A stretch of 59,690 nt of DNA, the filler included, from Jimgerdemannia flammicorona (taxonomy: Eukaryota), in NCBI GenBank assembly GCA_003990765.1. It is 2 parts of 2 records of this genome, joined end to end, with 100 filler letters (N's around TTAATTAATTAA, not from the genome) between each part and the next. Parts side by side here need not be neighbours in the genome. Positions count along the whole stretch, not along the records: positions 1 to 29,800 come from RBNJ01000470.1; 1 more part is not named here. One strand, given 5' to 3'. Shown piece after piece: positions 6,664 to 51,695 of the stretch; position 1 is the stretch's first letter; every line of letters starts with the position of its first letter. The notes below the pieces were generated by a model. The model was not told the origin of the DNA, made no database searches, and worked only from the letters and a program-made list of their open reading frames with translations. The position numbers and the translations under genes were made by a program.

Positions 6664-6727
6664 GAAGTAAAATATAATAGTAAGTGCATTCTCTACTACT
6701 CCATGTTTATCTCCTTCTGAGCTAGGT

Positions 6728-15500: not shown

Positions 15501-18253
15501 TTTATTCTAATGCAGGATCTTAAGAAGTTGTTCTTCCAGGGGAAAGTTTTCTCTAATGATATATGTATGCTTGTTCTGGTCCCTGTCTTTCTTATGCTTA
15601 AGTTCAGTAATCTTGGTAGTAATATAGACTCCTCTTCCAGTTGATCCAAAGCCTTGTTTTCCTCTCTTGGTCTTGATGAGTTCAATGGCTTCTATTATTT
15701 TGGGCTTCTTGATTTCGTGGATTAGTATCTGGCCAATCCTGTTACATATACTTCTTGACTTTGAATAGAGTGGTGGGGTTGTAATTCCTGACTATGAGAA
15801 AAATCTTACCAGTGTAATCAGGGTCAATTACTCCTCCTTCAACTGAGATTTTGCTTTTGGCCAGACTGCTCCTGGTTTTGATAATTCCAGCATAGTTCTC
15901 TGGCAGCTTGACTCCAATTCCAGTACCAAGTAGGGTGGTGGTCTGTGGTTCAAGGGTAGTATCTTGAATGCTGGCAAGGTCTATTTCTATGGCTCCTTCA
16001 GTCTTGTATTCTGGGATCTTAGCTTTAGGGTGAAACTTCTTAACCTTGAGGGTGATGTCTGATTCTTGTTTCTCCTCATCATTACTGTCAGCTTGAAGCT
16101 CTGGAGGCTGGTCATCTTCTTCAGCTTTCCTTTTTGCTTCAGCAGCTTCTTGTTCATACTTCTGTTGGCAGATTTTTCTGACTTCACTGATATAGGACCA
16201 GCAGTCATTCAGGTGTTCAGAGTAGTACATCCTAGTACCATGGGCATCTTTCTTGAGGAGCATAGCCATTGATGATCTTATTGTACCACTGCTTGTCTAT
16301 GAGCTTGGGTGTCTTGTTCTTTTCTTGTTCACTGAGTGCATGAAGACTTCTGTATCCTCCTCATTTCCTTTCTCTATATCTGATAGAACTCTTTTGTAGA
16401 CATTGATAGAGACTTATATCTTTCTTCCTCTATAGTTGATCTGCATCTTCTGGGCATTGAGATCAATGATGACCTTGGCCTTGTGAAGCCATTAATTGCT
16501 AATGAGAATGTCATAGTTAGTGGTGCTTATAACAATTACATCTACTGAGATAGTAGCTTCTCCTATCTTGATGGGGACTTCTTGGATTTTGCTAAGGAGA
16601 GTAGCTCATATACTATCTGCTGTGACATTGATCATCTTGGTGGACTCTTCAATGTCCCAGTCTAAGTGGTCAATTGTCTTCTTGCTCATGAGGCATCCTT
16701 CAGCACCAGTATCAATGATGGCATCAAAGATATAATCTTTGATCTGATATGGGGTATAGGCTGATATCTTATACTGGTCTTCAGATTCTTCACCTGAGTT
16801 TTCAGATTCTTCCTGTACATTGTGAGCTTCTACAATCTTGTACTCTTGATTCTTAGCAGTAGTTGCAAGTTCTACTCTTAACTGCTGTCTGAAGGCAGAG
16901 ACTTTGGCTAGCTGTCTAAAAGTAGCATTGACCTTCTGTTCCTTGAGGTCCTTGTAGATATCATACTAGTAGATCTTGGTCTTGTGCAGCTTCTGTTTCT
17001 TCTTGCTTTCACTTTCTCCTGAGACTAGAGTAGTGCCTTCAATGATTTGGCAGGTAGCTTCATCTAACTCCATATCTTGATCAATCTCCTCAGGTTGGAT
17101 CTTGCTTTAGATAATAACAGCTGGAGTCTTCTTTGGTCTTCCAACTGGTTTGCTATTGCTCTTCTTGTCATAGAGCTTGGACTGAGTTCTGGTACCTTCA
17201 GTAGAGGGTAGAATTTGAGCTCCTCATAGTATTCTTTATCATCAGTATTACCAATCTTCTCGATGACTACTGTATTGGTTTGTTTTCTGGTTCTGCTAGC
17301 ATTACTTGATTGGGCTTTGTGTCTTGTTTCAGTTATGCAATTCTTTGCATAGTGGCCTTCTTTATATCTGAAGCATGTGATATTGCATTCTTCTGTAGCA
17401 GCTACAAATCTCTGCACTGGTCTCCTGTTGGTACTTTGGACTTCTCTAATAATATTACCAAAGTGTACAGTCATCTCAGTGAACTGCTTGGCAAGTTTCT
17501 CCACTGGGTCAGCTTTGGCTGCCTTGGGAGTAGATGGGGATGGTTGTCTGTTTACAACTGTAGCAGATATGATACTAGTTGGCTTTAATGACTCCATCTT
17601 AATACCAGTTATTTTCTCTATTGAGTGTTTGGCAGAGTATCTGGCAGTCCAATATCTCTGTATAAAGACCACTTTCTGATCAAGGATTAGTACAGCTGGA
17701 GTAGACCAGATTGCTAGAGCAATTTCAGGGTGAACTTCTTTGAGGAAGGTTAATTCTGCTATTTATTTCTTGAGAGCATCATCATAGCTAGCCAAGATAA
17801 TCTGGTGATAGATTCAGGTATAGAATGAGTTGGGATCTTCACTAAGTCTCTGGCAGATAGTATTGAGTTGATCCTTGAGAGCTTGCTTAATCTCTTTAGT
17901 ATAGTATGTTATTCTGAGAAAGGCCTTCATATTGGCAAGTTTGGCTGCACTATTATCAGCAATAGTAGCTGTATTGAACTTATCTCTGACAGGTCCTCTG
18001 TGACTGGTAGAAGGGCCAATTGTGTATCCATACCAAGAGCTCATACAGTAGCGAATTGTTCAAAGTCTTCAATAAAGGTCAGAATTGACTCTTTAGTAGT
18101 ATATCTATAGAATGTGGGGGGATGTATTTCCATCTTATCTTGAATTCTTATAGGGGTGACTCTTGTAGTCAGGGTAGTTATTGTGGTGGTTGTTTGTTTT
18201 TCAGCTTAAAAGTGAGAGATTCATCTTGAATTACCAGCCAATGAGCACTAAGT

Positions 18254-19821
18254 TATCATATAGTAGTCGCTGAGTCCTTCAAATATATCAGATTCTCTTC
18301 AAGATATATCTCTTAGACTAACTCAAGTTTGTTATAAGCAAGTTCTTATTGGAGTGCCTTCTTAAGATCTTATAGTCTTCAAACTTCTTATCTTTAAATT
18401 GTCTTGTTATCTCTTTAGATTGCTTATAAGGAATTGTGTATATTGTACTGAGTAGACTGACTTTATTTTAGAGGAAATAAGAGAGGTATTTATATAAAAT
18501 ATAATTCAATGGTTGCTAAGATATAAAGCTAAATATAAATTCCAATAACTAAAATAAAATACCAGGACAGAGAAAACTGCTAAGTTCCAGTATCAGTACA
18601 GATAGTTGCATAGAGTCAAGATGCTGGTATAATTCAGTGATATAGGAAAATAGTGCTGGAATAATTCAGTATCACATCAGAATACTGGTAGTGAAACAGC
18701 TGTTATACAGAAAAAGAGTGCTGATATAATTCAGTATAACCAAGAGACTTAGAGTAGAATATTCAAAACCATAGGGGCTTCATCCTCGTCAGAGGTCAGG
18801 ATGTCTTTGAAGGAGATGAGATCCACAAATATCTTGTCTATCTTGTGGCATAGATTGTATGTTTCACATATGTTGTGCAGGATAACATCATTGCTGATAA
18901 TATCATCACATTTGGCAGTGGCAGGAACAAGGAGATCTGGAGCTCTCCAGTCTATGAGGTTCTCTTCCATGAAATAGGGGACAAATGTAGGGTTTTGAGG
19001 AGGTCTAACCTGGATACTTGGGCCTTGGAATACTGAGATCAATCCTTGCAAGAATTGGTCTGGGTTGTCCTAGAGAATGGGATACCAGAAGTCTTCTATT
19101 TTATCACTATTAAGGGTGATAGTGGACTGGGCTTCTATAGCCACCCTGGCTTCTAGTGTATTGATACAGTGGTCTGATAGGTCTCTGAAGTCTGAGACTC
19201 TAACATACTCTAAGTTGGGGATTGACTATGATGCATGCTTGAAGATCTGATGAATCTTCTTAGCTATCCTTACTTCATGTATATCTATGAGAGTGGTATC
19301 TTGTAACTCTTGGAAACTGGCCTGTGGGAACTCCTGGCAGAGGAGGTTTCCTATCTCATACTCCTGCCATATTTGGAGGCATTCAGTAGCAATGGTGATT
19401 CTTATTTCTATTTCACAGTGGTAGAGGATATAATGATAAAGGTCACTAGTATCCAGGTTAACACTAGGAGTCCTTCTTAAGTGGGTCCTTATGGCTCTTC
19501 TGATGTCTTGGAACATCCTTTCTTCAACTAAAGTGCCTTAGTGGTTTCTTGACCTTGAGGTTTGGTGAGCAGCAGACATTTCATTTGTGATAAGTCTTTG
19601 AGCTATTTTGGGATTGGTGGGTCTTGTTGGTTGCTGCTACTGCAGTTCCTTGATTCTTCTTTTATATTTCTCAAGATATCTATACTGTGGTCATAATAAC
19701 TTACAGTTGGTCATTATTGCTCATCTTGTATACTATATGATCTTCTTGTACTCTGATCTGGTGGCTTATAAGGAAATACTGTCTTCTGTGCTGATATCAT
19801 CATTCTGGGGTCACCATTATA
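18254..19821 (-). repeat. 5' LTR of family A copy 1, containing a decayed LTR-ORF (18749-19579)
   Basis: Followed on the minus strand by ACT + T(A/G)GTGCTCATTGGC PBS; ORF pieces 19226-19516 and 18749-19051. Confidence 0.9.
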
Positions 19822-21872: not shown

Positions 21873-21975
<103 letters not shown>

Positions 21976-23624
21976 TTCATCTCAGAAAATTTTTATTGCT
22001 TCACTGTCTCATTATTATATAAGTTGTTTAAAGCTCTGCACCAAGGCCAAATCAGTATATATATATTTTTTTAGATTTTAATTATTTATCTTTCCTTACC
22101 TACTGCCCAAAGCTTACTGAACAAGTATATAGATTTAAATGACAAGACTAAACATACCGCATTCTCAACCAGAGACACCCAGATAACTTACCTCCCTCTT
22201 GTACTTACCAATGGTCTAGTGGATCGTCAATCCAAAGGGAATCTGTTGTAACTTTTGTTGGGAATATGGAGTGGAGGAGAAGAGCAGCAGCGTTTATTGA
22301 TTGCTCGCGTTTTTACGCGTCGAGTGACGTAGTTACAAAGAATCACGTGTCTAAACCACATATAATCTAATAAGAATTTCAAGGGAACTTAGTAATACAG
22401 GAAAAAAAAAAAAAACGTACGTGGTTAGCCAACTGCATGTGAACTGTGCAAATGTGGTGTGTGTGAAAGAACGACGCCAAAGTGTGCAAAAATATAGAAC
22501 TTCATACCTCTACTGCTCCGCTCTTCGAGTCGAGTCAAGGCTCAGACGAGTTGAATTGATTAGAACCTGGCCAAAGAGGTTCAGGATGGAGAACAGGCCA
22601 ACGTGCTCTGTTTCTAGTTGTCATAGCGTGTATGTGTGCAGTGGGAATTTCATATGGTCGGAATGTGTCGTGGATTCGGCTTGTTCGACACAACGGGTCT
22701 CAGTGGCTTGGAAAGCTCGATCTTTGTAAGCAAAATAGTCTGAAGGGGTTTCTAAGTTGCCTTTAGTCATGGATCACATCAGATGCGACGATAATACCGA
22801 AACAACCATAAATGTGATATTCAAATTCCGTTTCATAGCACCGGTCACCTTGACTATCAGTCAGGCGAGATGTCCGAAAGATTTAGACGAGTATTGTTGA
22901 GTAAGAGTTAGCGCGGGAAGATTGAAACTTATGAGGTAAAAATGGCGCACTTAAATTATGGCTTTGCAGAGGGAGGGAATGCGAATAAATGTTGTTCAAA
23001 ACGGCCATTTGATGTGTCAGAAAATCCACAACATTAATATGATACTTTAGACGTATCATGTGGTGGGGCGCTTCCATTTTTTGATGCGTTGTCCATATTT
23101 TTGTTTCTTTGGAGGCTACTTCGGTCGCAGTTGTGAATTTTTTTTTTTGGGGGGGGGTACCGTGGCCAATAGCAAAGAAATGTTTCATCACCAACGACCC
23201 CGCGGAATGCCAAGAATGCCAAAGTGCCCATTCGCAGAAAAAAAAATGCTTTTATGGAACTCGGGCGAATTCGAGACTAACGCCTTTGTACGGTGTCGTC
23301 GTCAGCATCAGCGTTCATTATTCGGTCAATCAATCGTTCATTTATTCGTTTGTCGCCACGCCCAGTCAATCCACTCGTCCAATGCCGCCGACCACGAACG
23401 AAGCTCGCCACTGACCACGAACGCAGCTCGCTATCGACCACAAGTGCATCAAACGGCGCACGGCCTCCCGTTGCATTCGCGTCTTAATGTAATGCGGCGG
23501 CCACCTCTTCGACCGTGTGCTAAAAGTTGGACTGCATACTGTGAGCGAACAAGATGACCGGCTGGCAACCGCAGCACATCGAAATACCTCCCCTCTTTTT
23601 CCGCAACACTTCCTTCGTCACAAC

Positions 23625-26997: not shown

Positions 26998-28344
26998 ATG
27001 TCCGACCCAACCCGTCTACAGCGCCTACTAGCCCGACTCAAGCCCTTCGAACACCTGCACAGTGCCCACCAAACTGAAATCTTGGCCTGGAAGAAAGATT
27101 TTTTGGAATATGACCAAGAACTTCGTGCTTGTCTTGACACCTTCGCCGTACCGCAGCTGGAGCCATACCTTGTCTGGATTCCACACGAAAAATTGGGTAA
27201 ATATTATGGTGGACTGAAACAACTTGCCAAAGGCGGGTTTGCCAAAGTTTACCAAGCGAATGTTTGGGCAAAGTCAGCATATTACAATGTGGCTGCTAAA
27301 GAATTGAAATTGTCGATGGTTGAAGAGGTGAGTTTCGGGTTGGTGTGATATATCCACTATTTTCCACACAATATTAATTACCGATAACCTTTATCCACTA
27401 ATAATTATAGTTAGTGCTGAATGTCTATTTGAGTCGCTGTGGAAATGACGCCAACAATGCCCCTACAATGGATATTGTCGCTGTGTCACGACACCCTGAA
27501 ACCAAAGAATATTTGATGATTATGCAATTTGCTGATATCGGCACTCTTGAGAAGCAGCCGTGCGACCAAGATGGTGATTGGTATACAGCTTTCACCTATG
27601 CTATAAAACTTTCCAGCCGCTTAGCCAGTCTCCACAATATGGGATTCTGCCATAAGGATCTCCACGCGGGAAACGTAGTATTCCACAAGTCTCATACCGC
27701 ACTCCTGATCGATGTCGGACTTAGTCAAGCTGTAGAAGATGTGAATTCCGAGAAAGGTGCCTACGGTCGGATTGCATACTTTCCTCCAGAGATCTTTAAG
27801 GGAGAACATTATACACAGAAATCAGACGTCTACTGCTTGGGAACCCTGTTGTGGCAGTTGATTGTCGGCGTTCCACCACAAGTCGACGCATCGGTAGCCA
27901 TCACCAGAAATCCTGATGGCCTTCGAGAGGAGTTAATCCCTAGTGCGCCAACAATGTTCAACGACATCATCCGAAGCTGCTGGCACATCAACCCCAACCA
28001 GCGACCGAGTGCTCTTGAAGTCCACCATCAATTGTTAGAATGTGCAGCTGGTTTAGTCAGCATTCCTTTTGTCTTGCGACCAAATATAGAAGATCAAATT
28101 TTAAGAGGGCTTGCAATTACATCTATACCTTTTTCACTCGAGATGCAATCGTTCATCGAGACAAGACGGGTCACCCATCAACAAGAGCTGGAATCTGCAA
28201 ACAGCGGCAACGTCTTCGAATTCATAGATGGACAGAGCACATGCAACACCGGGAGTAAATTTTACACACATTCACAACTCAAACAAATTACCAAAGAGCA
28301 CTCGCGATCGACCCTTATCACTCTTGTGCGACAACCAAATCAAG
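26998..28344 (+). CDS. Tyrosine-kinase-like (TKL) Ser/Thr protein kinase domain; exons 26998-27327 and 27411-28344; probably the N-terminal part of a kinase-LRR protein
   Basis: LAKGGFAKVY, VAAKEL, HKDLHAGN, LIDVGLS, YFPPE, SDVYCLG, CW...RPS motifs. Phase-0 GTGAGT...ACTAAT...TAG intron 27328-27410 joins the two ORFs in frame. Candidate donor G|GTTGGT at 28344/28345 (phase 1). Confidence 0.9.
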
Positions 28345-28645
28345 GTTGGTAGCATCACAGGTCATACAGTTATCCTTGTATATGATATTATATTTGTTAA
28401 CCAGCAGGCTTTTGTGTTCTTAACTTATGTCACAACGATTAGACTATGGTAGCATCAGAGGTAATGTTAGCAGGTCCCGAGATTGTTGACATTTGGTTTA
28501 TGCATATTAATTCTCGATTTGTGTTTAGAGAAGAGCATCCCGACGAATCACAACACATATATTATATCACATGAACTATTTTCTACTGTTCATATAATCA
28601 AAATCATGTTCTGTTTATGTTCGCTATATCTCTATTCATCTACAG

Positions 28646-29800
28646 AAAGCAGGACTGACAGCGAGGAGACCAGTATCCTAGTGAAGTTTCTGAAGCGAGA
28701 AGCGACCTTGCATGAGTTAAATCTCTCTGGTATGGTTGAACAGTGCGAACTATTGTTATGCAAAAATAAAAATACACACTCTGCTCATTTATATCATATT
28801 CAGGAAAGTGCAAGTACACGAGCGACAGAGCAACGCGCACTCTGATAGAATTTCTGAAGCAGAACACAAACGTGACCAAGCTCGATCTTAGCAGTGAGTC
28901 AGAAACATCCGAATTATTGTTTTTGTAGCTGTGGGATAGGAACAAGTTGTGATCCAGGTGTGTTCACATTCTTTCAATATATTCAGGAAACGGATTTGGC
29001 ATTCTGTTAGCCCGCGCCTTGGCAGAGTTTCTGAAGCAGAACACATCTTTGACCACCCTCAATTTTGAAGGTATATCAGAGTTACGTGAATCACTATTTT
29101 GAGCAATATGAGGGAACGGAGCTCACAATATCCGTGTGTTTTCTCATCTCCTTCTATTCATTTCTCAGTGAACAGCATCGGCCACGAGGGGGCACGCGAC
29201 CTTGACCTCGCTGCATCTCCGAGGTATGTCAGAAACCGGTGTGAAGAAAAATGGGGTGCGGCTGCGCAATGGAATCAAGCTCACGATGTGTGCGTGTTCG
29301 CTGATTCCCCTCCTGCTCATTTTCATTTCTCAGAGAACAGCATCGGCGACGAGGGGGCACGCGCCCTAGCCGAGTGTTTGAAGCAGAACACGACCTTGAC
29401 CTCGCTGGATCTCGGAGGTATGTCAGAAACTGGTGTGAAGCAAAATGGGGTGCGGCTGCGCAATGGAATCAAGCTCACGATGTGTGCGTGTTCGCTGATT
29501 CCCCTCCTGCTCATTTTCATTTCTCAGACAACGGCATCGGCCACGAGGGGGCACGCGCCCTAGCCGAGTGTTTGAAGCAGAACACGACCTTGACCTCGCT
29601 GGATCTCCGAGGTATGTCAGAAACTGGTGTGAAGCAAAATGGGGTGCGGCTGCGCAATGGAATCAAGCTCACGATGTGTGCGTGTTCGCTGATTCCCCTC
29701 CTGCTCATTTTCAGTTTCTCAGCGAACAGCATCGGCCACGAGGGGGCACGCGCCCTAGCCGAGTGTTTGAAGCAGAACACGACCTTGACCTCGCTGCATC
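28646..29800 (+). CDS. RNI-like (NLRC3-type, 28-aa) leucine-rich-repeat exons: 28646-28729, 28804-28893, 28987-29070, 29169-29223 (29-bp deletion), 29334-29417, 29528-29611, 29723-gap
   Basis: Each exon is flanked by CAG and GTATGT/GTATGG/GTGAGT/GTATAT. Intact exons are 84 nt (one 90 nt) and phase 1-1, translating to xN(S/G)IG(D/H)EGARALAECLKQNTTLTSL(D/H)L(G/R). Confidence 0.88.
29169..29800 (+). repeat. Tandem 194-bp exon+intron cassette (84-nt exon + 110-nt intron)
   Basis: Near-identical units start at 29169, 29334, 29528 and 29723; the array is truncated by the N gap. Confidence 0.92.
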
Positions 29801-29900
29801 NNNNNNNNNNNNNNNNNNNNNNNNNNNNNNNNNNNNNNNNNNNNTTAATTAATTAANNNNNNNNNNNNNNNNNNNNNNNNNNNNNNNNNNNNNNNNNNNN
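29801..29900. other. Assembly gap with artificial TTAATTAATTAA spacer (29845-29856)
   Basis: Ns flanking a palindromic 12-mer that gives stops in all six frames. Confidence 0.9.
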
Positions 29901-33625: not shown

Positions 33626-33826
33626 ATAATTTATATAATAAAATTTCTAATAGAATTTCTAGAGTAGTTATTATAATAGTGACTCTAGAATGATGACATC
33701 AGTACAGGAGACAGCCTTTCCTTGCAAGCCACCAGATCGGAGCACAAGAAGATCATATGGCATACAAGATGAGGAATGATGACCAACTGTGAGTCATTGT
33801 GACCACAGCACAAGTATCCTGAAGAA

Positions 33827-33833
33827 TATAAAA
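33827..33833 (+). promoter_or_regulatory. TATA box (TATAAAA) upstream of the LTR-internal ORF
   Basis: Present in all six family A LTRs, ~80 nt before an ATG in an A-rich context (AAACAAAATG). Confidence 0.55.
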
Positions 33834-33913
33834 GAAGGATCAAGAAACTGCAGTAGTAGCAACCAATAAGAACTACCAATCCCAAAATAGCTTAAAGACT
33901 TACTATAAACAAA

Positions 33914-34725
33914 ATGTCTGCTGCATGCCAAACCTCAAGGTCAAGAAATTACCAAGTATCTTGGTCGAGGAAAGGATGTTCCAAGACATCAGAAGAGCCA
34001 TGAGGACCCACTCAAGAAGGACTCCTAGTGTCAACCTGGGTACTGCAGACCCTTATCACTTCATTCTCTACTGCCATGAAATGGAAACAAGGATCACTAT
34101 TGCTACTGAATGCCTCCAAATGTGGCAGGAGTATGAAATAGGAAACCTTCTCTACTGGGAGTTCCCACAGGCCAGTACCCAAGAGCTACAAGATACCACT
34201 CCCATGGATATACACAAAACAAAGATAGCTAAGAAGATCCATCAGATCTTCAGGCATGTACCATGGTCAATCCCCAACTTGAAGTATGTTAGAGTCTCAG
34301 ACTTCAGAGACCTATCATCCTGCCATATCAATATACTAGAAGCCAAGGTGGCTATAGAAGCCTGGTCCACTATCACTCTCAACAGTGAAGAAGTAGAAGA
34401 CTTCTGGCACCCTATCCTTCAGGACATCCCAGACCAATTCCTGCAAGGATTGATCTCAGTATTCCGAGGCCCAAGCATCTGGGTTAGATCTCCCCAAGAC
34501 CCCATGTTTGTTCCTTATTTTGTGGAAGAGAACCTCATAGACTGGAGAGCTCCAGACCTTGTTTCCGATTTCCCCACCACAGCTAAACATGATGACATCA
34601 TTGGCGATGATGTCATCCTGTATGACATACGCGAAATGCATGACCTGTATGATGAATTCATGGATCTCATCTCCTTTAGTAATGATGATGATGAAGCCCC
34701 CATGGTCCTGAACTTTCTGCTCTAA
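33914..34725 (+). pseudogene. LTR-internal ORF of copy 2 5' LTR (1-bp deletion near 33956, otherwise open)
   Basis: Homologous over its whole length to the intact 278-aa ORF 56620-57456. Confidence 0.8.
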
Positions 34726-35136
34726 GTGCTTTGTTACACTGGATAATGCCAGCACCAGTATTCTCATGTAACACTAGATAATGCCAGCATCCTGAACCTG
34801 TACAACTATCAGTACCAACTCTGGAACTTAGTTGTTTTAGTTATTGGAATTTATATTTAGCTTTATATCTTAGCAACCATTGAATTATATTTTATATAAA
34901 TACCCCTCTTATTTCCTCTGAAATAAAGTTAGTCAACTCAGTGCAATATACACACTTTCTTGCAAATAATCTAAGAGATAACAAGACAGTTTAAAGATAA
35001 GAAGTTTGAGGACTATAAGACCTTGAGAAGGCACTCCAATAAGAACTTGCTTATAACGACTTGAGTTAGTCTAAGAGATATACCTTGAAGAGAATCTGGC
35101 ATATTTGAAGGACTCAGTGACCACTATGTGACAACT

Positions 35137-35153
35137 TGGTGCTCATTGGCTGG
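35137..35153 (+). promoter_or_regulatory. tRNA primer-binding site (TGGTGCTCATTGGCTGG), 3 nt after the LTR
   Basis: Starts TGG (complement of tRNA CCA); conserved at 53500 and ~18234-18250. tRNA species not assigned. Confidence 0.75.
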
Positions 35154-35253
35154 TGATTCAAGATGAATCCCTTACTTTTAAGCTGAAAAATGAATAACCC
35201 CCACAACAACTACTCTGACTACAAGAGTCACTCCTGCAAGAATTCAAGATAAG

Positions 35254-38200
35254 ATGGAAATGTATCCCCTTACATTCTATAGATATACTACTGAAGAGTC
35301 AATCCTGACCTTCATTGAAGACTTTGAACAATTTACTGCCATATGAGCCCTTGGTGTGGATGCTCAATTGGCCCTTCTACTAGTCAGCCTCAGTGGACCT
35401 GCCAGAGACAAGTTTAATGCAGCCACTATTGCTAGTGCTGATGCAGTCAAACTTACCAACATGAAGACCTTCCTCAGAACAACATATTATACTAAAGAGA
35501 TCAAGCAAGCTCTCAAGGATCAACTTAATACTATCTGCTAGGGACTTAGTGAAGATCCCAACTCATTCTATATCTGAATCTGCCACCAGATTGTCTTGGC
35601 TGGCTATGATGATGCCCTTAAGGAACAAATAGCAGATTCAACCTTCCTTAAAGGAGTTCACCTTGAAATTGCCTTAACAATCCAGTCTACCCCAGCTGCA
35701 CTGACCCTTGATCAGAAAGTGGTCTTTGCACAGAGATATTGGACTGCCAGACACCCTGCTGAACACTCAATAGAGAAAATAACTGGCATCAAGATGGAGC
35801 CATCAAAGCCAACTAGTATCTTACCTGCCACAGTTGTAAACAGACAACCAACCCCACCTATCCCCAAGACAGCCAAAGCTGATCCAGTGGAAGAACTCGC
35901 CAAGCAGTTTGCCGAGATGACTGCACACCTTGGTGATGTTATTAGAGAGGTCCGAAGCACTAACAGGAGACCAGTGCAGAGATTTGCAGCTACTACAGAA
36001 GAACACAATATCACATGCTTTAGATGCGGAGAAGAAGGCCACTATGCAAAGAGTTGCATGACTGAAATGAGATGCAAAGCCCAACCAAGCAATGCTAGCA
36101 GAACCAGAGAACAAACCAATGCAGTAGTTATTGAGGAGATTGGTGACACTGATGATGAAGAATACTACGAGGAGCTCGAATTCTACCCTGCTACTGAAGG
36201 TACCAGAACCCAGTCCAAGCCCTATGACAAGAAGAGCAACAGCAAGCCAGTTGGAAGACCAAAGAAGACTCCAGCTGTCACTATTCAAAGCAAGACCCAA
36301 CCCAAGGAGATTGATCAAGACATGGAGTTAGATGAAGCTACCTGCCAAATTATCGAAGGCACTACTCTAGTCTTAGAAGAAAGTGAGAGCAAGAAGGAAC
36401 AGAAGCTGTGCAAGACCAAGATCCACCAGTATGACATCTACAAGGACCTCAAGGAACAGAAGGTCAATGCCACTTTTGGACAGCTAGCTGAAGTCCCTGC
36501 CTTTAGATAGCAGTTGAGAGTAGGACTTGCAACTACTGCCAAGAATCAAGAGTACAAGATCATAGAAGCTCACAATGTACAAGAAGAATCTGAGAACTCA
36601 GGTGAAGAATCCGAAGACCAGCACAAGACATCAGCCTATACCCCCTGCCAGATTGAAGACTGTATCTTTGATGCCATCATTGATACTAGTGCTGGAGGAT
36701 ACCTCATGAGCAAGAAGGCAATTGAATGCCTAGGTTGGGACATTGAAGAGTCCACCAAGATGGTCTATATCACAGCAGATGGTACACAAGCTATCCCCCT
36801 TGGCAAAATCCGAGAAGTCCCCATCAAGATAGGAGGAGCTACCATCCCAGTAGACATGATTGTTACAAGCACCACCAACTATGACATCCTCATTGGCAAC
36901 CAATGGCTTCACAAGGCCAAGGCCATCATTGACCTCAATGCCCAGAAGATGCAGATCAACTACAGAGGAAGAAAGGTATGAGTTTCTATCAATGTCCACA
37001 AAGGAGTCCTGCCAGACATGGAGGAAAAAGATAAAGAAGACACAGAGGTCTTTATGCACTCAGTGAACAAGAATAAGAACAAGACATTCAAGCTCACAGA
37101 TGAGCAGTGGTATAACAAGATCATTGATGGGTATGCCCCTCAAGGAAGATGCCCCCATGGTACTAGAATGTACTGCTCTGAACACCTGAATGACTGCTGG
37201 TCCTGTATCAGTGAAGTCAGGAAAATCCACCAACAGAAACACAAGCAAGAAGCTGCTGAAGTAAAAAAGAAAGCTGAAGAAGATGACCACCCCCCAGAGC
37301 TTCAAGCTGACAGTGATGATGAGGAGGAACAAGAATCAGACATCACTCTCAAGGTTAAGAAGTTTCACCCTGAAGCCAAGATCCCAGAATACAAGACTGA
37401 AGGAGCCATAGGAATAGACCTTGCCAGCATCTAAGATGCTACCCTCAAACCACAGACCACCACCCTACTTGGCACTGGAATTGGAGTCAAGTTGCCAGAA
37501 AACCATGCTGGAATTATCAAGACCAGGAGCAGTCTGGCCAAAAGTGAAATCTCAGTTGAAGGAGGAGTAATTGACCCTAATTACACTGGTGAGATTTTTC
37601 TCATAGTCAGAAATCACAACCACACCACCCCCTTCAAAGTCAAGAAACATGACAGGATTGGCCAGATGCTAATTCATGAAATCAAAAAGTCCAAGATCAT
37701 AGAAGCCACTAAACTTATCAAGACCAAGAGAGGAGAATAAGGCTTTGGATCTACTGGAAGAGGAGCCTATGCCACCATCAAGATTACTAAACTTGAGCAT
37801 AGGAAAGACAAGGACCAGAACAAGTACACATATACCATTGGAGAAAACTTTCCCCTGGAGGAACAACTTCTCAAGATCCTGTACCAGAATGAAGGAGTAC
37901 TTGCTACAGACTTTAGGGATATCCACAATCAAGAACCCAAGTATTACCACGAAGTTGACACTGATGATACCAAGTCTATCTATCAGAAAGCCAGACCCAT
38001 ACCACCTGCCTACAGAGAGTGGCTGTGAGCCAAACTCAAGGAAATGGAAGAAGCCAGAATCATGAAGCAAGCTATCAGCCCCTGGGCCTCACCCATTGTC
38101 CTTGCCCTGAAGAAAGGAAGCAAGCCTGGAGAGTTTGTACCAAGACTCTGCATTGACTATAGAAAACTCAATGCCATCACCAAGAAGGATAGGCAGCTCT

Positions 38201-39279
38201 TGCCAAATATTCAAGAAATCCTTACCACCCTTGGAAGCAAAGCCAAATACTACACCACCTTGGATCTGTTCTCAGGCTTCCATCAGATCAGTCTCACTTA
38301 AGATGCTAGTGAGAAATCAACCTTCATCACACCTGATGCCACCTATATCTATCTGCGAATGCCATTTGGAATGTGCAATGCCCTAGCAAGTTTCCAGCAA
38401 ATAATGAACAGAGTCTTCAGCAATGAGATTGGAAAATGGCTCTTTGTCTATATTGATGATATGATCATCTTCAGCAATACTGCACGGGAACATATCAATC
38501 ACATACAGCTAGCCCTCAAGAGGCTCAAGGAGTATGACCTCTACATCAAGCCCAAGAAATACAAGTTTGTAGCTCAAGAAATCACCTACCTAGGACACCT
38601 TATCAACCAGACCAGAATCCATACAGACCCCATGAAGATCGAGGCTGTTGCAGCCTACCCAAGACCCAGAACAACCACAGAAGTCCATGCCTTCCTTGGA
38701 CTGGTCAGCTACTACAGAAGATTCATCAAAGGATACTCCAACATTGCAGCACCTATCTACGAACTACTGAAGAAGGAGACTAAATTCAAATAGACCAAGG
38801 AGTACCAAGAAATCTTCAATGAACTCAAGACTAGGTTGACCCAAGCATTCATCCTCAGAAGACCAGACTGGAACCTAGAATTCATCCTGCAGACAGACGC
38901 GAGTGCTATAGGACTTAGAGCAGTCCTAGCTCAGAAGAAAGATAAACATGAATATATCATCTCCTATGCAAGCTGAGATACCCGCAGAGCAGAACAGAAC
39001 TACGAGTCATACAAGCTTGAATACTTAGCAGTAGTTTGGACAGTAGACAAGTTCCACTACTACTTAGCCAGAAAACACTTCACTATTCAAATGGACCATT
39101 CCACTCTTGCCTGGCTATTCCACACTCTGAACCCCAAAGGAATATATGCCAGATGGATCTACAGGCTGCAAGAGTATGACTGTACTGTCAAGCACCACTC
39201 AGGAAAGACCAATACCAATGCCAATGCACTCTCAAGAACACCCTGAAACACTCCCATCAAGACTACTCAATATGAATAA
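35254..39279 (+). pseudogene. Single-frame gag-protease-dUTPase-RT-RNase H polyprotein with premature stops
   Basis: ORF pieces 35356, 35596, 36514, 37018, 37492, 38044 and 38359 are all in one frame. CFRCGEEGHYAKSC knuckle, AIIDT(S/G)A protease, dUTPase motifs, WASPIV/LCIDYRKLN/LDLFSGFHQ/MPFG/YIDD, LQTDAS, NANALSR. Confidence 0.92.
37345..37758 (+). pseudogene. dut: Trimeric dUTPase domain within pol, between protease and RT
   Basis: GAIGIDL, TRSSLA, GGVIDP(N/D)YTGEI, DRIGQM, RGE*GFGSTG (motifs 1-5). Also present in copies 1 and 3. Confidence 0.92.
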
Positions 39280-40798
39280 GGAGCTATACTATGGATTAAT
39301 CAGCTATCTTGGATAGTAGAAGATGCCCAACTACCTCAAACCCTGGATAATCACCATCATCAACTGGACTTAGAAATAGTTTGAATTAGACAACACTACA
39401 CTCAGAAAAGGAGGAAAGTTAGTAATATCTAAACATAAGAAGTATCAAGTAATGAAGGAAGTACATGAGCAAGAACACTTAGAAGGAACCAACACATATG
39501 ACAAGGTAAGAAGAACCATATGGTGGCCCAAGATGGAAGAAGACCTGTACCAATTTGTCAAAAAGTGTGACAAGTGCCAAAAACAGAAACAAGATCAGTA
39601 AGACCAGACACCCAGGTCATCAAGAATTGAGTCTATCCTCTTCCACCACATCATAATGGATATCATTAGACCACTACCAGTAACACTATCAGGAAACTGC
39701 TATATTATAGTTATTGTAGACCTCTTCACTAAATGGATAGAGGCAGGAGCATTACAAGAAGTCAATGCCCTCTCTATAGCTGACTTCCTATACTGAGAAA
39801 TCATCTGCTGCTATAAGACACCAAAGCAAATCACAACAGACCGTGGTACAGAATTTGTCAATAGATTCTATGAGATAACGTATCAGAAATACAAGATCCA
39901 GCACATCAAGACCACTGTGTACCACCCTCAAGGAAATGGACAGACAGAGAGAACCAACAAGACCCTCAAGAACATCCTAGCAAAGATCTCAGAGACATAT
40001 GAGAATTGGGATAACTATCTCCTGACTGCCCTCTCTGTTCTACGAGATATACAGTCACAGAGTACACATTTTACCCCAAGAGAGCTGCTCTTTGGAGAAG
40101 AAGATTCTGATGGAACCTCAGCCACAAATCTAGACCTAACTTAGAAATGGATTGATGCAGAAATCCAGAGACCACACCAAATCAGGAAGAAGGCTGAAGA
40201 TTACATCACCAAGTCACAAGCGCTGACAAGGAAGAATGCGGAAAAGAATCACAAGGTCCTAGAATCCATCTGAATCAGAGAAAAGGTTCTACTGTATTGA
40301 AATATGTTAGAAGCCTCATGGTCATGAAAACTGGAGCCCAAATGGGAAGGACCCTTCTATGTGCAAGATATCAAGGGAACTACCTTCTGGCTTAGAAAAA
40401 TCTCAGGGACCATACTGCCTACCACAGTACATAGGAACAGACTTAAGAAGTACCATGAACCTATACAAGAGAAGCAAAATGTGATGACCGCCTGTGAGAT
40501 TCTAGTCCGTGAATCATAACAGCATGTCCTGTGACCAGCAGGCTATCTGTCTGGACCATTCTCTAAGGGATACAACACTGCTAACTACTCATCTGTGAGA
40601 CTTTCACAGTCAGAGAAGTTCAAACCATCAACTGATTGATCAAGATCAGAATCAGGCCCTTGCTCTATATGAAGGGAGCAACCCTTCACTATTATGCCAA
40701 AATACAAAGGGAAGATGCCAGCCCATAAACACCAGTTTTTGACCCCTTGCCAGAGGTTATGGGATCAGCAAATTTTTCAGGACTGGACCAATGAATAA
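39272..40798 (+). pseudogene. Integrase in a separate (+1) reading frame, with premature stops; no chromodomain
   Basis: Starts MNKELYY. HHCC zinc finger, DII(G/R)PLP, ITTDRGTEF, YHPQGNGQTER, KWEGPF. Ends ...WTNE* just before the PPT. Confidence 0.88.
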
Positions 40799-40822
40799 GG
40801 ATACTCAGGAAGATTCTTATTC

Positions 40823-40832
40823 AGGAGGAAGA
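40823..40832 (+). promoter_or_regulatory. Polypurine tract AGGAGGAAGA
   Basis: Directly precedes TGTAAC of the 3' LTR; identical in copies 1 and 4 and in family B. Confidence 0.88.
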
Positions 40833-42294
40833 TGTAACAGTGACTCCAGAATAATGACATTAGTACAGGAGACAGCCTTTTCTTACAAGCCACCAGATTG
40901 GAGCACAAGAAGATCATACAGCATATGAGATGAGCAATGATGACCAACTGTGAGTCATTGTGACCACAGCACAAGCATCCTGAAGAATATAAAAGAATGA
41001 TCAAGGAACTGTAGTAGCAGCAACCAACAAGAACCACCAATCCCAAAATAGCTCAAAGACTTACCATAAACAAAATGCCTGCTGTATGCTAAACCTCAAG
41101 GTCAAGAAATCACCAAGGTATCTCAGTTGAGGAAAGGATGTTCCAAGACATCAGAAGAGCCATGAGGACCTACTCAAGAAGGACTCCTAGTGTCAACCTG
41201 GGTACTGCGGATCCTTATCACTTCATTCTCTACTGCCATGAAATGGAAACAAGGATCACTATTGCTACTGAATGCCTCCAAATGTGGCAGAAGTACGAAA
41301 TAGGAAACCTCCTCTGCCAGGAGTTCTCACAGACCAGTACCCAAGAGCTACAAGATGCCACTCCCATGGATATATATGAAATAAGGACAGCTAAGAAGAT
41401 CTATCAGATCTTTAGGCATGCATCATGGTCGATTCCCAACTTGGAGTATGTTAGAGTCTCAGACTTCAGAGACCTATCATCCCACCATATCAATGCACTA
41501 GAAGCCAGGGTGGCTACAGAAGCCCAGTCCACTATCACCCTCAACAGTGAAGAAGTAGAAGACTTCTGGCACTCTATCTTTCAGGACAATCCAGACCAAT
41601 TCCTGCAAGGATTGATCTCAGTATTCCAAGGTCCAAGCATCTGGGTTAGATCTCTCCAAGACCCCACATTTGTTCCTTATTTTGTAGAAGAGAACCTCAT
41701 AGACTGGAGAGCTCTAGACCTTGTTCCCAATTTCCCCACCACAGCTAAATGTGATGATGTCATCAGTGATGACATCATCCCACATGACATATGCAAAATG
41801 CATGACCTATATGATGAATTTGCAGATCTCATCTCCTTCAGTGATGAGATGATGAAGCCCTCATGGTCCTGAACTTTCTGCTCTAAGTTTTTTATTACAC
41901 TGGATAATGTCAGCACCAGTATTCTCATATAATACTGGATAATGCCAGCATTCTGAACCTGTACAACCATCAGTACTAACTCTGGAACTTAGTAGTTTTA
42001 GTTATTGGAATTTATATTTAGCTTTATATCTTAGCAACCATTGAATTATATTTTGTATAAATATTCCTCTTATTTCCTCTGAAATAAAGTCAGTCAATTC
42101 AGTACAATATACACACTTTCTTGCAAGCAATCTAAGAGATAACAAGACAGTTTAAAGATAAGAAGTTTGAGGACTATAAGACCTTGGGAAGGCACTCCAA
42201 TAAGAACTTGCTTATAATGACTTGAGTTAGTCTAAGAGATATACCTTGAAGAGAATCTGGTGTATTTGAAGAACTCAGTGATCACTATGTAATA
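40833..42294 (+). repeat. 3' LTR of family A copy 2, with LTR-ORF remnant (41075-41886)
   Basis: Direct repeat of 33672-35133, same length. Confidence 0.92.
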
Positions 42295-42927
42295 TTATAT
42301 ATATCTTCAATAAGATAAGTATAAATATTCTTAAATATTATATAGTATAATATAGCAGATATCTAATCTTAGAAGTATGGTGGATTTCTATATATTGAAA
42401 CTTGATCTTATTCTAACTCTTACAGAGTTCTCAAGGTGTAAAGATATAAGTTCAAAGTATATCTGGCTATAGGCTTACTAGTTCTCTTACTTTTTCTTTA
42501 CTTTGAACTATTTTGATCTGAGGTTTATTCACTCTAGATACTGGAGATATTTATATAAGTTCACTAGCTATAAGGTGGCTGAGGTATGACTATATTTCCT
42601 ATAAGTTACTTTTTATAAGTATGGATTCTTAATATCTGTGAAATTTTAAAAATTATCAAAATTCAATATCTATTAAATCTTGATATTTATAAAAATAACT
42701 ACTATTTATATAGCTATACTATTTTGGAGATTGGTTTAAGTACTATAATCAAATATCTATTCCTCTAATTTATATTTCTAATTCAGATCAATTATGTATT
42801 ATAACTTTCTCCTAAATAAATATTTTATCTCTAAAGTATCTTATTCACTTGAACTCCCAAACTTCTATAAGTTATATCTCTTTATACTATATATATAATT
42901 TGTATTATTATATTCTCTTAATAGTAT

Positions 42928-50979: not shown

Positions 50980-51695
50980 TGTCTGTTGTTATTTATACTG
51001 AAGTCTTAAATCAACAAATAATTTTCTTATAAAAGAAATTAGTAATTGATTATATATTGACTTCTTTGAGTAGTCCTACTTCTATCTATTTTATAAAAAG
51101 GTTTATAATAATAATAATGTATTGGTTATCAGTTAAAGTTAATGATAGAGGGCCAATTACATCTATTATAATGTGAGCAAATAGTATTAGTTCTATATAT
51201 ACTGATTCTGGAGTCTGATTTTACTGATCTTATTTTTGTTTTTGGTATTTATTATAGGTCTTGATAAATTATCTAATATCTTTCTCTATTTCTGGCTACT
51301 ATATTGTTCTTTTAGCTTTCTTGTAAATATTTATTCCTTTTAGATAGCTGAGTTTATATACTGACTTTATTGTTATTCTTTCTTATACTCAAGTATGACT
51401 AGTATTTTTTTTTTCTTTAAAGTTTCTCTATTAGTTTTGAATTGTTTCCATATTCTACTAATAATTATTTATGTTCATTCTTTCAGATATTGAGACATCT
51501 TTTACTATTCTAGATAGGTGATAATTCTATAGTAAAGCTCTTTATTCATAGTTGGTTTACTGGTTGGAAGTTCTTTAGTATATCTATGAAAGAGTATCAG
51601 ATTCTTCTTGAGTAGTATACAATAGTTACATTATAGGCCTATAACTTCATAATCTATTTGACATAGATTTCTTTAGGTTATTCAGTAGTTAGTAG

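What the first reader, a model, noticed from the sequence alone, without database searches (positions are those of the whole stretch)
26998..29800. Non-RD kinase joined to a one-repeat-per-exon LRR array: candidate variable immune receptor
Seen: the kinase exon ends at a phase-1 donor (CAA G|GTTGGT, 28344) and every intact downstream LRR exon is phase 1-1. Kinase and LRRs can therefore splice into one frame, and any LRR exon can be skipped, duplicated or swapped without a frameshift. The catalytic loop is HKD (non-RD) and DFG is DVG. Known: non-RD kinases are associated with innate-immune receptors in plants and animals; described fungal NLRs use WD40/ANK/TPR rather than LRR sensors; exon-per-repeat LRR shuffling is described in brown-algal (Ectocarpus) ROCO genes. 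Inference: a cytosolic kinase-LRR sensor with modular specificity (no signal peptide or TM segment apparent), sitting in a TE-dense region.
Basis: partly seen in the sequence, partly recalled or inferred. Interest (0 to 1): 0.85.

Follow-up and report, generated by a model that had tools for sequence, protein, structure and literature searches.

The report
Fungal kinase gene with modular LRR exons
This is a soil-fungus gene that joins a protein kinase to a string of leucine-rich repeats, each on its own small interchangeable exon, a build that could let a binding surface change quickly, although what it senses is unknown.

Summary
A two-exon TKL-like kinase (26998-27327, 27411-28344) ends at a phase-1 donor. 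Seven RNI-type (Pfam LRR_6) one-repeat exons follow. The five complete ones (84/90 nt) are phase 1-1, one is a 55-nt deletion derivative that shifts the frame, and the last is cut at 29800. The last units form a 194-bp exon+intron tandem array (96% alike) that runs into an artificial contig-join spacer, not a sized gap.

Kinase and LRRs are very probably one gene. An annotated 769-aa Endogone protein (58% identical) is collinear with every exon. An independent soil contig repeats the phase-1 donor followed by 54/84/90/84-nt phase 1-1 LRR exons.

RNA-library contigs show precise LRR-LRR exon junctions. The 28344-to-28646 junction itself was not seen.

HKD and DVG are real. DVG is invariant in the family, but the R position is merely unconstrained (7 of 32 relatives keep HRD). 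The kinase resembles MLK/ABL-type kinases, not IRAK/RLK.

It is not an NLR, a ROCO or a receptor kinase. An immune-receptor role is a reasonable but untested hypothesis. This copy may be decaying: it has a weak donor, a frameshifting exon and a truncated 3' end.

I found no published description of the family. I file it as a new variant of a known kind, of moderate interest.

The parts
26998..27327 (+). Exon 1: N-terminal about 70-residue region, then the start of the kinase N-lobe (glycine-loop-like KGGFAKV, VAAK lysine)
   Evidence: ATG, phase-0 donor GAG|GTGAGT. 45% identical to residues 4-106 of Endogone P0016. The same exon lies upstream of the kinase in L001, L002 and L005. No Pfam match on its own.
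27328..27410 (+). Intron 1 (83 nt, GTGAGT...TATAG)
   Evidence: An RNA-library contig (X4 record 22, 1 mismatch) starts to match at 27409 with 18 unmatched letters before it, as a spliced exon 1-exon 2 junction would (table 8). This reading is an inference.
27411..28344 (+). Exon 2: rest of the kinase domain (HKDLHAGN, DVG, PPE) plus a conserved post-kinase region of about 100 residues. It ends at the phase-1 donor CAAG|GTTGGT.
   Evidence: Pfam PK_Tyr_Ser-Thr 1.4e-25 and Pkinase 2.7e-21. 57% identical to P0016 residues 113-412. Family alignment A1. Phase.
28345..28645 (+). Intron 2 (301 nt), the longest intron, with a weak donor GTTGGT. The junction across it is not directly shown.
   Evidence: A phase-1 donor stands at the homologous place in L001, L002 and L004. 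No listed joint.
28646..28729 (+). LRR exon 1 (84 nt, phase 1-1), degenerate first repeat
   Evidence: Aligns with the LRR part of P0016. No Pfam match alone.
28804..28893 (+). LRR exon 2 (90 nt, phase 1-1)
   Evidence: Aligns with P0016 residues 493-519. L004 has a 90-nt exon at the corresponding rank.
28987..29070 (+). LRR exon 3 (84 nt, phase 1-1)
   Evidence: 75% identical over 20 residues to a P0016 repeat.
29169..29223 (+). Truncated LRR exon (55 nt): an 84-nt unit lacking 29 internal nt. It shifts the frame if spliced in.
   Evidence: Its 5' 30 nt and 3' 25 nt match the full units.
29334..29417 (+). LRR exon (84 nt, phase 1-1), member of the 194-bp tandem array
   Evidence: Pfam LRR_6 3e-06.
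29528..29611 (+). LRR exon (84 nt, phase 1-1), member of the 194-bp tandem array
   Evidence: Pfam LRR_6 1.3e-04, 22.2 bits, just under the 23.4 cut-off.
29723..29800 (+). LRR exon cut after 78 nt by the contig end
29197..29800 (+). Tandem array of 194-bp exon+intron cassettes (3.1 copies present, 96% alike)
   Evidence: The self-match 29194-29605 vs 29388-29800 is 96.6%. A 33-nt exon core occurs 3 times, against 0 expected.
29801..29900 (.). Artificial spacer (44 N + TTAATTAATTAA + 44 N) that joins two contigs. Not part of the gene; it marks where the gene is cut.

Best explanation
The locus is one gene of a family so far named only from Endogonaceae (Mucoromycotina fungi). It encodes a soluble cytoplasmic protein with three parts:
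- an N-terminal TKL-like protein kinase with a short leader;
- a conserved helical post-kinase region;
- a C-terminal solenoid of ribonuclease-inhibitor-type leucine-rich repeats.

Shown:
- The exon structure.
- Homology to, and collinearity with, a full-length Endogone protein.
- Conservation of the catalytic residues: VAAK lysine, HxD aspartate, the Asn of the catalytic loop, and the DVG aspartate.
- Every complete repeat lies on its own phase 1-1 exon.
- The distal repeats are a young tandem duplication of a 194-bp exon+intron cassette.

Inferred:
- The kinase is active.
- The LRR solenoid is the partner-binding or ligand-binding and regulatory module. Its binding surface is remodelled by unequal crossing-over of cassettes, and possibly by exon skipping, both of which stay in frame.
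- Binding changes kinase output.

Whether the ligand is non-self (immunity, allorecognition, symbiont sensing) or an endogenous partner is open. I put non-self sensing at about one in four. This particular copy lies at a contig end among retrotransposons. It has a weak donor and one frameshifting exon, so it may be a decaying member of a birth-and-death family.
For: One gene:
- P0016 (Endogone sp. FLAS-F59071, 769 aa; Pfam kinase plus LRR_6 at 1.3e-33) is 58% identical over 99% of exon 2.
- tblastn places its residues 4-106, 113-412 and its LRR part in order on exon 1, exon 2 and the LRR exons.
- A phase-1 GT donor ends the kinase exon in 4 of 4 loci that reach that point: window, L001, L002, L004. 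L003 and L005 end earlier.
- Six of the seven metagenome ORFs that reach that column in alignment A1 stop one residue after the homologous Gly or Ile-Gly.
- In L004 the donor is followed by phase 1-1 exons of 54, 84, 90 and 84 nt that encode LRRs.

Splicing:
- Contigs of an RNA library (X3 records 20 and 21; flanks with 0-5 mismatches) join one LRR exon to the next with the spacing of a spliced 84-nt period (table 8).
- X1 and X2 give many such joints, for example 28893 to 29335 (table 5).
- Kinase-exon contigs 99% identical to the window occur in RNA libraries X3 (record 17) and X4 (record 22).

Catalytic motifs:
- IDVG is invariant in 14 of 14 sequences. H81, D83, H85, G87 and N88 are at least 90% conserved.
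- The VAAK-type lysine is visible in the window, P0016, L001, L002 and L005.

Soluble.

Young, diversifying array:
- The units are 96% alike, introns included.
- 6 of 84 exon sites vary and all 6 are nonsynonymous, against 3 of 111 intron sites.
- The varying residues sit in the LxxLxLxxN strand and the loop after it. By general LRR knowledge these are the exposed concave-face positions.

Large family:
- 1149 (X1) and 766 (X2) contigs match the 2.9-kb stretch at 90% or more. 646 and 430 of them fit two places.
- Different letters sit exactly at exon-exon junctions (12 rows shown, 124 more not shown, table 5c).
Against: - The junction 28344 to 28646 is not among the 15 joints shown (67 more were not shown).
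- X4 record 27, from an RNA library and with 5-7 mismatches per about 85 nt, covers 28262-28344 and 28579-28666 in one contig with 175 letters between. This is an unspliced or genomic form of a relative. X2 record 16 also crosses the acceptor at 28645/28646.
- Donor GTTGGT departs from the GTAAGT/GTATGT of relatives.
- The 55-nt exon breaks the frame unless it is skipped.
- The 3' end and the stop codon are missing.
- Only 1 of 164 fetched kinase relatives (P0016) carries LRRs. Most of these are single-exon ORF calls on short contigs, which could not show a fusion.
- 13 of the longer relatives (373-517 aa; 10 of them DVG-type) are kinase-only by Pfam.
- L003 and L004 carry a stop and a frame change in the kinase, so part of the family is dead.
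- The excess of exon over intron variation rests on 9 sites and is not statistically significant.
- No experiment bears on activity, ligand or function.
Confidence: 0.6

Rival explanations
1. This copy is a pseudogene, or a gene in decay: a recently dead member of a kinase-LRR family that turns over by birth and death, stranded among retrotransposons. Its family membership and architecture are real, but it makes no functional fused protein.
For: - Weak donor GTTGGT at the critical kinase-LRR junction, a 55-nt frameshifting exon, and no 3' end.
- 2 of 5 metagenome relatives (L003, L004) have a stop and a frame change in the kinase.
- Degraded LTR retroelements flank the gene.
Against: - Both kinase exons are open with all catalytic motifs.
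- All five complete LRR exons keep AG/GT sites and an open frame.
- Skipping the 55-nt exon restores the frame.
- Near-identical (99%) kinase-exon contigs occur in RNA libraries X3 and X4.
- The missing 3' end is an assembly limit, not a lesion.
Confidence: 0.3
2. There are two products. The kinase ends at the TAG at 28350-28352 (or in a short alternative exon), and the LRR exons are transcribed separately from a start inside 28345-28645. An in-frame ATG lies about 40 nt upstream of 28646.
For: - Unspliced contigs cross the region in X4 (record 27) and X2 (record 16).
- The reading frame of LRR exon 1 is open upstream to 28471 and contains a Met (ORF 28471-28845).
- Kinase-only relatives exist.
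Against: - A GT donor in phase 1 is kept at exactly this place in 4 of 4 loci, and the next exons are in the matching phase.
- The Endogone model reads through as one 769-aa protein that is collinear with the window.
- RNA libraries routinely hold pre-mRNA and DNA, as the tool itself warns.
Confidence: 0.12
3. The protein is an ordinary signalling scaffold, not a variable receptor. The RNI-type LRR binds a fixed endogenous partner, as in RanGAP-like or ribonuclease-inhibitor-like proteins. The tandem cassettes are neutral repeat instability.
For: - RNI-type arrays like that of P0016 occur with many unrelated domains (NACHT, F-box, MYND, Roc, kinase) and in proteins that sources name 'RanGAP'.
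- The repeats of P0016 itself are diverged from one another, so they show no high internal conservation.
- The variation statistics are weak.
Against: - Every one of the 6 variable exon sites changes a residue, and they cluster at the strand-loop boundary.
- Hundreds of variant contigs have differing letters exactly at exon junctions.
- Pseudogenes in the family suggest turnover.
Confidence: 0.35
4. The kinase-LRR adjacency is an assembly artefact: a chimeric contig end in a collapsed repeat.
For: - The contig ends inside a 96%-identical tandem array.
- The 29-nt deletion might be an assembly error.
Against: - The same adjacency is found in the Endogone protein and in metagenome contig L004.
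- LRR exons 1-3 are unique sequence that is contiguous with the kinase.
- The cassette copies differ at defined sites.
Confidence: 0.03

Closest known systems
Endogone sp. FLAS-F59071 hypothetical protein BC937DRAFT_86469 (P0016, 769 aa)
   Same: Same leader, the same kinase with HxDLHxGN and DVG, the same post-kinase region and a C-terminal LRR_6 array. 58% identical over the kinase exon and collinear with all the window's exons.
   Different: It has about 11 mutually diverged repeats and an acidic, Asn-rich linker that the window lacks. It has HED rather than HKD. It is an uncharacterised database entry, and its exon structure could not be seen here.
Ectocarpus ROCO and LRR-kinase candidate receptors (Zambounis et al. 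2012, PMC3341825; Teng et al. 2024, PMC11378527)
   Same: One LRR per exon, exon lengths divisible by three, exon duplication and shuffling, family turnover with pseudogenes, and a proposed variable binding surface (passages; abstract).
   Different: The brown-algal exons are 72 nt (24 residues) of the plant-like LRR type, joined to Roc-COR GTPase. Here the exons are 84/90 nt of RNI type, in phase 1-1, behind a kinase with no Roc or COR. No reverse-strand LRR relics turned up in the introns: the 33-nt exon core and P0016 by tblastn matched the LRR region on the + strand only.
RNI-type LRR arrays of animal NLRC3/NOD-like receptors and ribonuclease inhibitor
   Same: The same Pfam family (LRR_6) and a 28-residue period. 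NLRC3 proteins are among the matches to the LRR part of P0016. Symmetric-phase LRR exons in those genes are recalled, not tested here.
   Different: No NACHT or NB-ARC module, and a kinase instead. One repeat per exon rather than the two-repeat exon unit that I recall for RI and NLRs.
Fungal NLRs with highly internally conserved WD40/ANK/TPR repeats
   Same: Near-identical tandem repeats with variation at exposed positions, and birth-and-death dynamics (passages of PMC13449251).
   Different: Those are STAND NTPases with intronless repeat arrays of other repeat types. According to the same passages, LRRs are typical of mammalian and plant NLRs, and other repeat types dominate elsewhere.
Non-RD kinases of innate immunity (IRAK and RLK/Pelle, e.g. 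EFR, XA21)
   Same: Arg is absent before the catalytic Asp in this copy. The association of non-RD kinases with immunity is stated in PMC8463890 (start of the abstract in the listing).
   Different: The closest solved kinases are MLK1, ABL, MLK4, DLK, FAK and CTR1. No IRAK or RLK stands among the 60 chains listed in either search. The R position varies freely in the family and is R in 7 of 32.
Protist LRR_6-kinase fusions (e.g. Skeletonema marinoi P0221; P0194, P0246, P0255, P0265, P0271)
   Same: An RNI-type LRR array and a protein kinase in one soluble protein.
   Different: By reading the sequences, the LRRs are N-terminal to the kinase in 6 of 6, the reverse of the order here. Their kinases were not compared with this one.

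Membership tests
Eukaryotic protein kinase superfamily (Pfam PF07714/PF00069) | Significant match to the kinase domain profile | tested here: met
   PK_Tyr_Ser-Thr 1.4e-25 (90.5 bits, cut-off 23.1); Pkinase 2.7e-21.
Eukaryotic protein kinase superfamily (Pfam PF07714/PF00069) | Catalytic residues: VAIK Lys, HxD Asp, catalytic-loop Asn, DFG Asp | tested here: met
   VAAK at residue 98, HKD at 191, HKDLHAGN, and DVG at 211 of the spliced model. These are conserved in the family. Activity itself was not tested.
Endogonaceae-type kinase-LRR_6 family (type: P0016) | Collinear leader, DVG-type kinase, post-kinase region and C-terminal LRR_6 array | tested here: met
TKL group (MLK/Raf-like) | Kinase domain closest to TKL members | tested here: inconclusive
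   The profile search against PDB is led by MLK1 (1.2e-19). ABL, MLK4, DLK, FAK and CTR1 all lie within about three orders of magnitude. No tree with reference kinomes was built.
IRAK / RLK-Pelle kinases | Kinase domain closest to IRAK/Pelle/RLK | tested here: not met
   None is among the 60 chains listed in either PDB search, which matched 1174 and 685 distinct sequences at their thresholds.
Non-RD kinase class | No Arg before the catalytic Asp | tested here: met
   HKD in the window. As a family trait it is not fixed: R in 3 of 13 and 7 of 32.
RNI-like LRR (Pfam LRR_6, PF13516) | Match to the repeat profile; 28-residue period | tested here: met
   3e-06 (27.3 bits against a 23.4 cut-off) on 29336-29416. 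22.2 bits on 29530-29610. Four other exons gave no match alone. P0016 scores 1.3e-33. The period is 84 nt.
ROCO / LRRK proteins | Roc GTPase plus COR domain | tested here: not met
   No Roc or COR match in the window's exons or in P0016. The missing 3' end of the window could not be examined.
NLR / STAND receptors | Central NACHT or NB-ARC NTPase | tested here: not met
   None in the window's exons or in full-length P0016.
LRR receptor kinases (plant, oomycete type) | Signal peptide, extracellular N-terminal LRRs, one membrane helix, C-terminal kinase | tested here: not met
   The kinase is N-terminal. The best 19-residue hydropathy mean is 1.35 in the window model and 1.36 in P0016, and the N-termini are hydrophilic. 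No dedicated signal-peptide predictor was on hand.
Exon-per-repeat shuffling receptors (Ectocarpus type) | Each repeat on one symmetric exon, with evidence of exon duplication | tested here: met
   Five complete phase 1-1 exons and a 194-bp cassette array. The same structure is found in L004. Alternative splicing and positive selection were not testable with the data on hand.

The most novel reading that the evidence does not exclude
Endogonaceae-type fungi carry a large, expressed, hypervariable family of intracellular LRR receptors in which a TKL kinase takes the place of the NACHT/NB-ARC switch. Specificity would be diversified by unequal exchange of 194-bp exon+intron cassettes and by in-frame exon skipping. 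This would be the first LRR-based non-self sensor family in the kingdom Fungi, evolved convergently with brown-algal ROCOs and with animal and plant NLRs.
Probability: 0.15. Interest if true: 0.85.

Novelty: new variant of a known kind. Interest (0 to 1): 0.6.

Why it matters
Fungi are held to lack LRR-based pattern receptors. The survey of Soanes and Talbot (PMC2939053, passages) found only a handful of fungal LRR+kinase proteins, which it ascribed to bacterial transfer. Fungal NLRs use other repeat types (PMC13449251, passages).

This is a fungal, intron-rich kinase-LRR family. Its repeats are packaged one per symmetric exon, and its arrays are still duplicating. It would therefore be a third, independent instance of a modular LRR sensor architecture. 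It occurs in a lineage of mycorrhizal and soil fungi that live with bacteria and plants.

It also gives a concrete, testable system. Copy number, site-wise selection and splice isoforms of the LRR exons can be measured as soon as long-read genome and cDNA data of such a fungus are at hand.

If the LRR turns out to bind a fixed partner, the finding is an ordinary lineage-specific domain fusion.

Tried and rejected
- No whole genome is held for the window. Paralogues that share the cassette could therefore not be counted in the genome.
- The first scan of metagenome contigs with the single protein found no relative. The second, with alignment A1, gave 5 short loci.
- Sequencing runs: no run holds half of the words, and the best shares are 0.19, 0.15 and 0.10. 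From these I draw no habitat or strain.
- In one search, run X1 has no cover over 28355-28645 while both flanks are covered. Depths (for example 137,568 over 29325-29421) are sums over many contigs and are not copy numbers.
- Joints not at exon borders (for example 29053 to 29535) were set aside as switches between similar repeats.
- A repeat HMM built from P0016 found LRRs in none of the other 163 fetched kinase relatives. Most of these are unspliced ORF calls on short contigs, so this does not show that the fusion is absent.
- P0232 seemed to share a 4229-bp contig length with P0002, but it is an unrelated LRR protein.
- The AlphaFold2 model of exon 2 with 14 sequences was poor (mean pLDDT 60.2, catalytic and activation segments under 50). 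I ran no fold search on it and draw nothing from it except a confident C-lobe and two post-kinase helices.
- Earlier findings of this scan: nothing by place, by sequence or by words.
- Literature: no paper describing this family turned up. PMC12574304 (a Mucoromycotina root-endophyte genome) mentions no LRR or NLR, and its four uses of 'kinase' are unrelated.
- The Endogonaceae genome paper that I recall (Chang et al. 2019) was not found or read. Its supplements may hold family counts.
- The upstream 9 kb holds no recognisable gene: no Pfam match for the three longest ORFs there.
Full report
**What is in the sequence**

The region is eukaryotic and has introns. From the ATG at 26998, a 330-nt exon runs to a GAG|GTGAGT donor in phase 0. 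After an 83-nt intron, a 934-nt exon (27411-28344) ends at CAAG|GTTGGT in phase 1. If it is not spliced there, the frame stops two codons later, at 28350-28352.

Seven short exons follow a 301-nt interval. All are bounded by AG and GT.
- 28646-28729 (84 nt)
- 28804-28893 (90 nt)
- 28987-29070 (84 nt)
- 29169-29223 (55 nt)
- 29334-29417 (84 nt)
- 29528-29611 (84 nt)
- 29723-29800 (78 nt, cut by the N run)

The five complete ones begin with two bases that finish a codon and end with one base that starts the next, which is phase 1-1. The 55-nt exon is an 84-nt unit that has lost 29 internal bases, and it shifts the frame if included.

Introns in the array are 74-111 nt. The last three are 110, 110 and 111 nt and nearly identical to one another. 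Tandem Repeats Finder reports a 194-bp period, 3.1 copies and 96% matches at 29197-29800.

**The 'gap'**

Positions 29801-29900 are 44 N, TTAATTAATTAA, 44 N, and this is the only N stretch in the window. A six-frame-stop linker of this kind is what is put between contigs when they are concatenated. That reading is my inference.

It follows that the gene sits at the end of a contig that broke inside the tandem array. The DNA from 29901 onward need not be its neighbour.

**Domains**

- Exon 2 matches PK_Tyr_Ser-Thr (1.4e-25) and Pkinase (2.7e-21).
- The exon 29336-29416 matches LRR_6 (3e-06, above the curated cut-off). 29530-29610 falls just below the cut-off.
- The other four LRR exons are too short or too diverged to score alone.
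- In the spliced model the kinase carries VAAK, HKD (HKDLHAGN), DVG and PPE.
- Neither the model nor its Endogone relative has a hydrophobic stretch fit for a membrane helix. The best 19-residue means are 1.35 and 1.36, and both N-termini are hydrophilic.

**Is it one gene?**

The strongest evidence is comparative. Among proteins of 549-2000 residues, the only strong match to exon 2 is a 769-aa hypothetical protein of Endogone sp. FLAS-F59071 (P0016: E 1.9e-105, 58% identity, 99% coverage). Its Pfam content is kinase plus LRR_6 (1.3e-33).

By tblastn, its residues 4-106 lie on exon 1 and residues 113-412 on exon 2, and its repeats lie on the LRR exons, in order.

Twelve shorter metagenome ORFs (46-66% identical to exon 2) form an alignment with it (A1). 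Six of the seven that reach the end of the exon stop one residue after a Gly or Ile-Gly at the homologous column. That is what an unspliced G|GT donor gives.

Five metagenome contigs were recovered with that alignment. Three reach the end of the kinase exon, and all three have a phase-1 donor at the same place:
- L004: ACAG|GTAAGT
- L002: CTAG|GTATGT
- L001: TTAA|GTAAGT

In L004 the donor is followed by phase 1-1 exons of 54, 84, 90 and 84 nt that encode LRRs. The 90-nt exon and the 84-nt exon after it correspond to the window's second and third LRR exons. L001 has a 42-nt phase 1-1 exon before its contig ends.

A conserved donor whose phase matches the next exons in independent relatives is hard to explain unless they are spliced together. 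I put the fusion at about 85%.

**RNA data**

Four runs were laid at 90% likeness or more. All are kept as contigs, so depths mean little.

Useful rows:
- In a root metatranscriptome (X3), record 17 covers 27524-27812 with 2 mismatches.
- X3 records 21 and 20 each join the 3' part of one 84-nt LRR exon to the 5' part of the next. The number of letters between (5 and 12) is exactly what a spliced 84-nt period requires, and the flanks have 0-5 mismatches.
- In X4 (also an RNA library), record 22 matches from 27409 with 18 unmatched letters before it. This fits a spliced exon 1-exon 2 junction, because both exon 1 and the intron end in AG. That reading is an inference.
- X1 and X2 (one coded organism; 'RNA?' is a guess) give 1149 and 766 matching contigs, of which 646 and 430 fit two places. 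They also give many exon-to-exon joints, such as 28893 to 29335 and 29413 back to 29335.
- The letters that differ sit exactly at the junctions (12 rows shown, 124 not shown).

Against the fusion:
- The 28344-to-28646 joint is not among the 15 joints shown (67 not shown).
- X4 record 27 holds 28262-28344 and 28579-28666 with 175 letters between. This is an unspliced or genomic form of a relative about 93% identical.
- X2 record 16 crosses the acceptor.

I therefore cannot exclude that intron-less arrays also exist as DNA.

**What kind of kinase?**

Single-sequence and profile searches of the PDB are led by MLK1, ABL1, MLK4, DLK, FAK1 and CTR1, at 1e-19 to 1e-16. No IRAK or plant RLK stands among the 60 chains listed in either search. 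The ESM Atlas puts it nearest to clusters of Mucoromycota kinases.

I examined 164 relatives fetched by sequence. In 145 of them a catalytic-loop-to-DxG pattern could be read.
- 88 of 145 have His where Ser/Thr kinases have the catalytic-loop Lys (DLHxxN).
- 32 of 145 have DVG.
- 80 of 145 have HRD.
- Within the 32 DVG proteins the residue before the Asp is K, E, S, Q, N, G, C, T, H or R, and it is R in 7.
- In the close family it is R in 3 of 13, while IDVG is invariant in 14 of 14.

So DVG and DLHxGN are the family's signature. 'Non-RD' is better described as loss of constraint at that site. The catalytic residues proper are kept, so I expect an active kinase. That is an inference.

**The LRR part**

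The repeats are of the ribonuclease-inhibitor type with a 28-residue period. The LRR part of P0016 finds similar arrays joined to NACHT, F-box, MYND, Roc and kinase domains in many eukaryotes and some bacteria. These include NLRC3 proteins and a MYND-LRR protein of Jimgerdemannia. The array as such is a widespread module.

Six protist proteins combine it with a kinase. By reading their sequences, the LRRs come first in all six. The order seen here, kinase first, was found only in P0016, the window and L004.

The three full or nearly full cassette exons differ at 6 of 84 sites. All 6 change the residue: first codon E/D/A, S/G, D/H, D/H, G/R. The three introns differ at 3 of 111 sites.

The changed residues lie in LxxL-x-L-x-x-N and just after it. 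In LRR proteins generally these are exposed positions of the concave face. That is established knowledge, not tested here. The numbers are too small for significance, but the pattern agrees with the junction-centred variation among the X1 and X2 contigs.

**Context**

The left contig holds a degraded LTR retroelement at about 11.0-19.8 kb. It has RT, RNase H and dUTPase remnants and 1.5-kb LTRs that are 87% alike. A second element lies at 2.9-8.4 kb. Related copies fill the right contig. Between 19.8 kb and the gene I found no recognisable gene. The window holds only one kinase-LRR gene.

**How it most likely works**

I propose a soluble kinase whose C-terminal RNI-type solenoid binds a protein or other ligand and thereby governs kinase output. 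One repeat per symmetric exon, and cassette duplication that carries the intron along, let the array grow, shrink or skip units without losing the frame.

The steps from 'binds' onward are inference.

Two of five metagenome relatives have broken kinase frames, and this copy has its own defects. The family therefore looks like a birth-and-death family.

**Comparison and novelty**

It is not any of the following:
- A ROCO protein: no Roc-COR.
- An NLR: no NACHT or NB-ARC.
- A receptor kinase: no membrane helix, and the kinase is N-terminal.

It works most like the exon-per-LRR candidate receptors of brown algae (PMC3341825, passages; PMC11378527, abstract). It differs from them in repeat type, exon size, phase and signalling domain.

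Soanes and Talbot found only four chytrid and five ascomycete LRR+kinase proteins, intron-less and bacterial-like (PMC2939053, passages).

My searches found no description of this family. One member is in GenBank as a hypothetical protein.

I file it as a new variant of a known kind, with interest 0.6. An immune role remains a hypothesis.

Noticed in passing
window 29801-29900: The only N stretch is 44 N + TTAATTAATTAA + 44 N, a six-frame-stop linker. The window is probably two contigs joined artificially, so linkage across it should not be assumed.
   Followed up: partly
window 11000-19800 (-), 33670-42290 (+), 51680-59680: Three copies (83-91% alike) of a degraded LTR retrotransposon of about 7-8.6 kb, with zinc knuckle, aspartic protease, RT, RNase H, integrase and an unusual dUTPase domain. 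LTR pairs of about 1.5 kb are 87% and 91% alike.
   Followed up: partly
window 2908-8387 and 42925-48375: Two copies (73% alike) of a 5.5-kb element with a very strong negative GC skew (-0.33 to -0.55) and no Pfam match in its longest ORFs.
   Followed up: no
L003:946-1483 and L004:2-800: Two of the five metagenome relatives of the kinase carry an in-frame stop and a frame change. They are pseudogenes or low-quality contigs, which hints at turnover in the family.
   Followed up: no
proteins P0165-P0168, P0176-P0188: Metagenome proteins of about 900-1050 aa combine NACHT (PF05729) with an RNI-type LRR array 37-41% identical to that of the Endogone kinase-LRR protein. Their organisms are unknown. 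If they are fungal, they would be NACHT-LRR proteins of a kind not expected in fungi.
   Followed up: no
family-wide, e.g. window 27639-27662: The catalytic loop reads HxDLHxGN. A His replaces the Lys of Ser/Thr kinases in 88 of 145 relatives examined. This looks like a signature of a large Mucoromycota kinase expansion.
   Followed up: partly
window 21900-22000: A long poly-T / poly-Phe low-complexity tract lies in the TE-rich stretch upstream of the gene.
   Followed up: no
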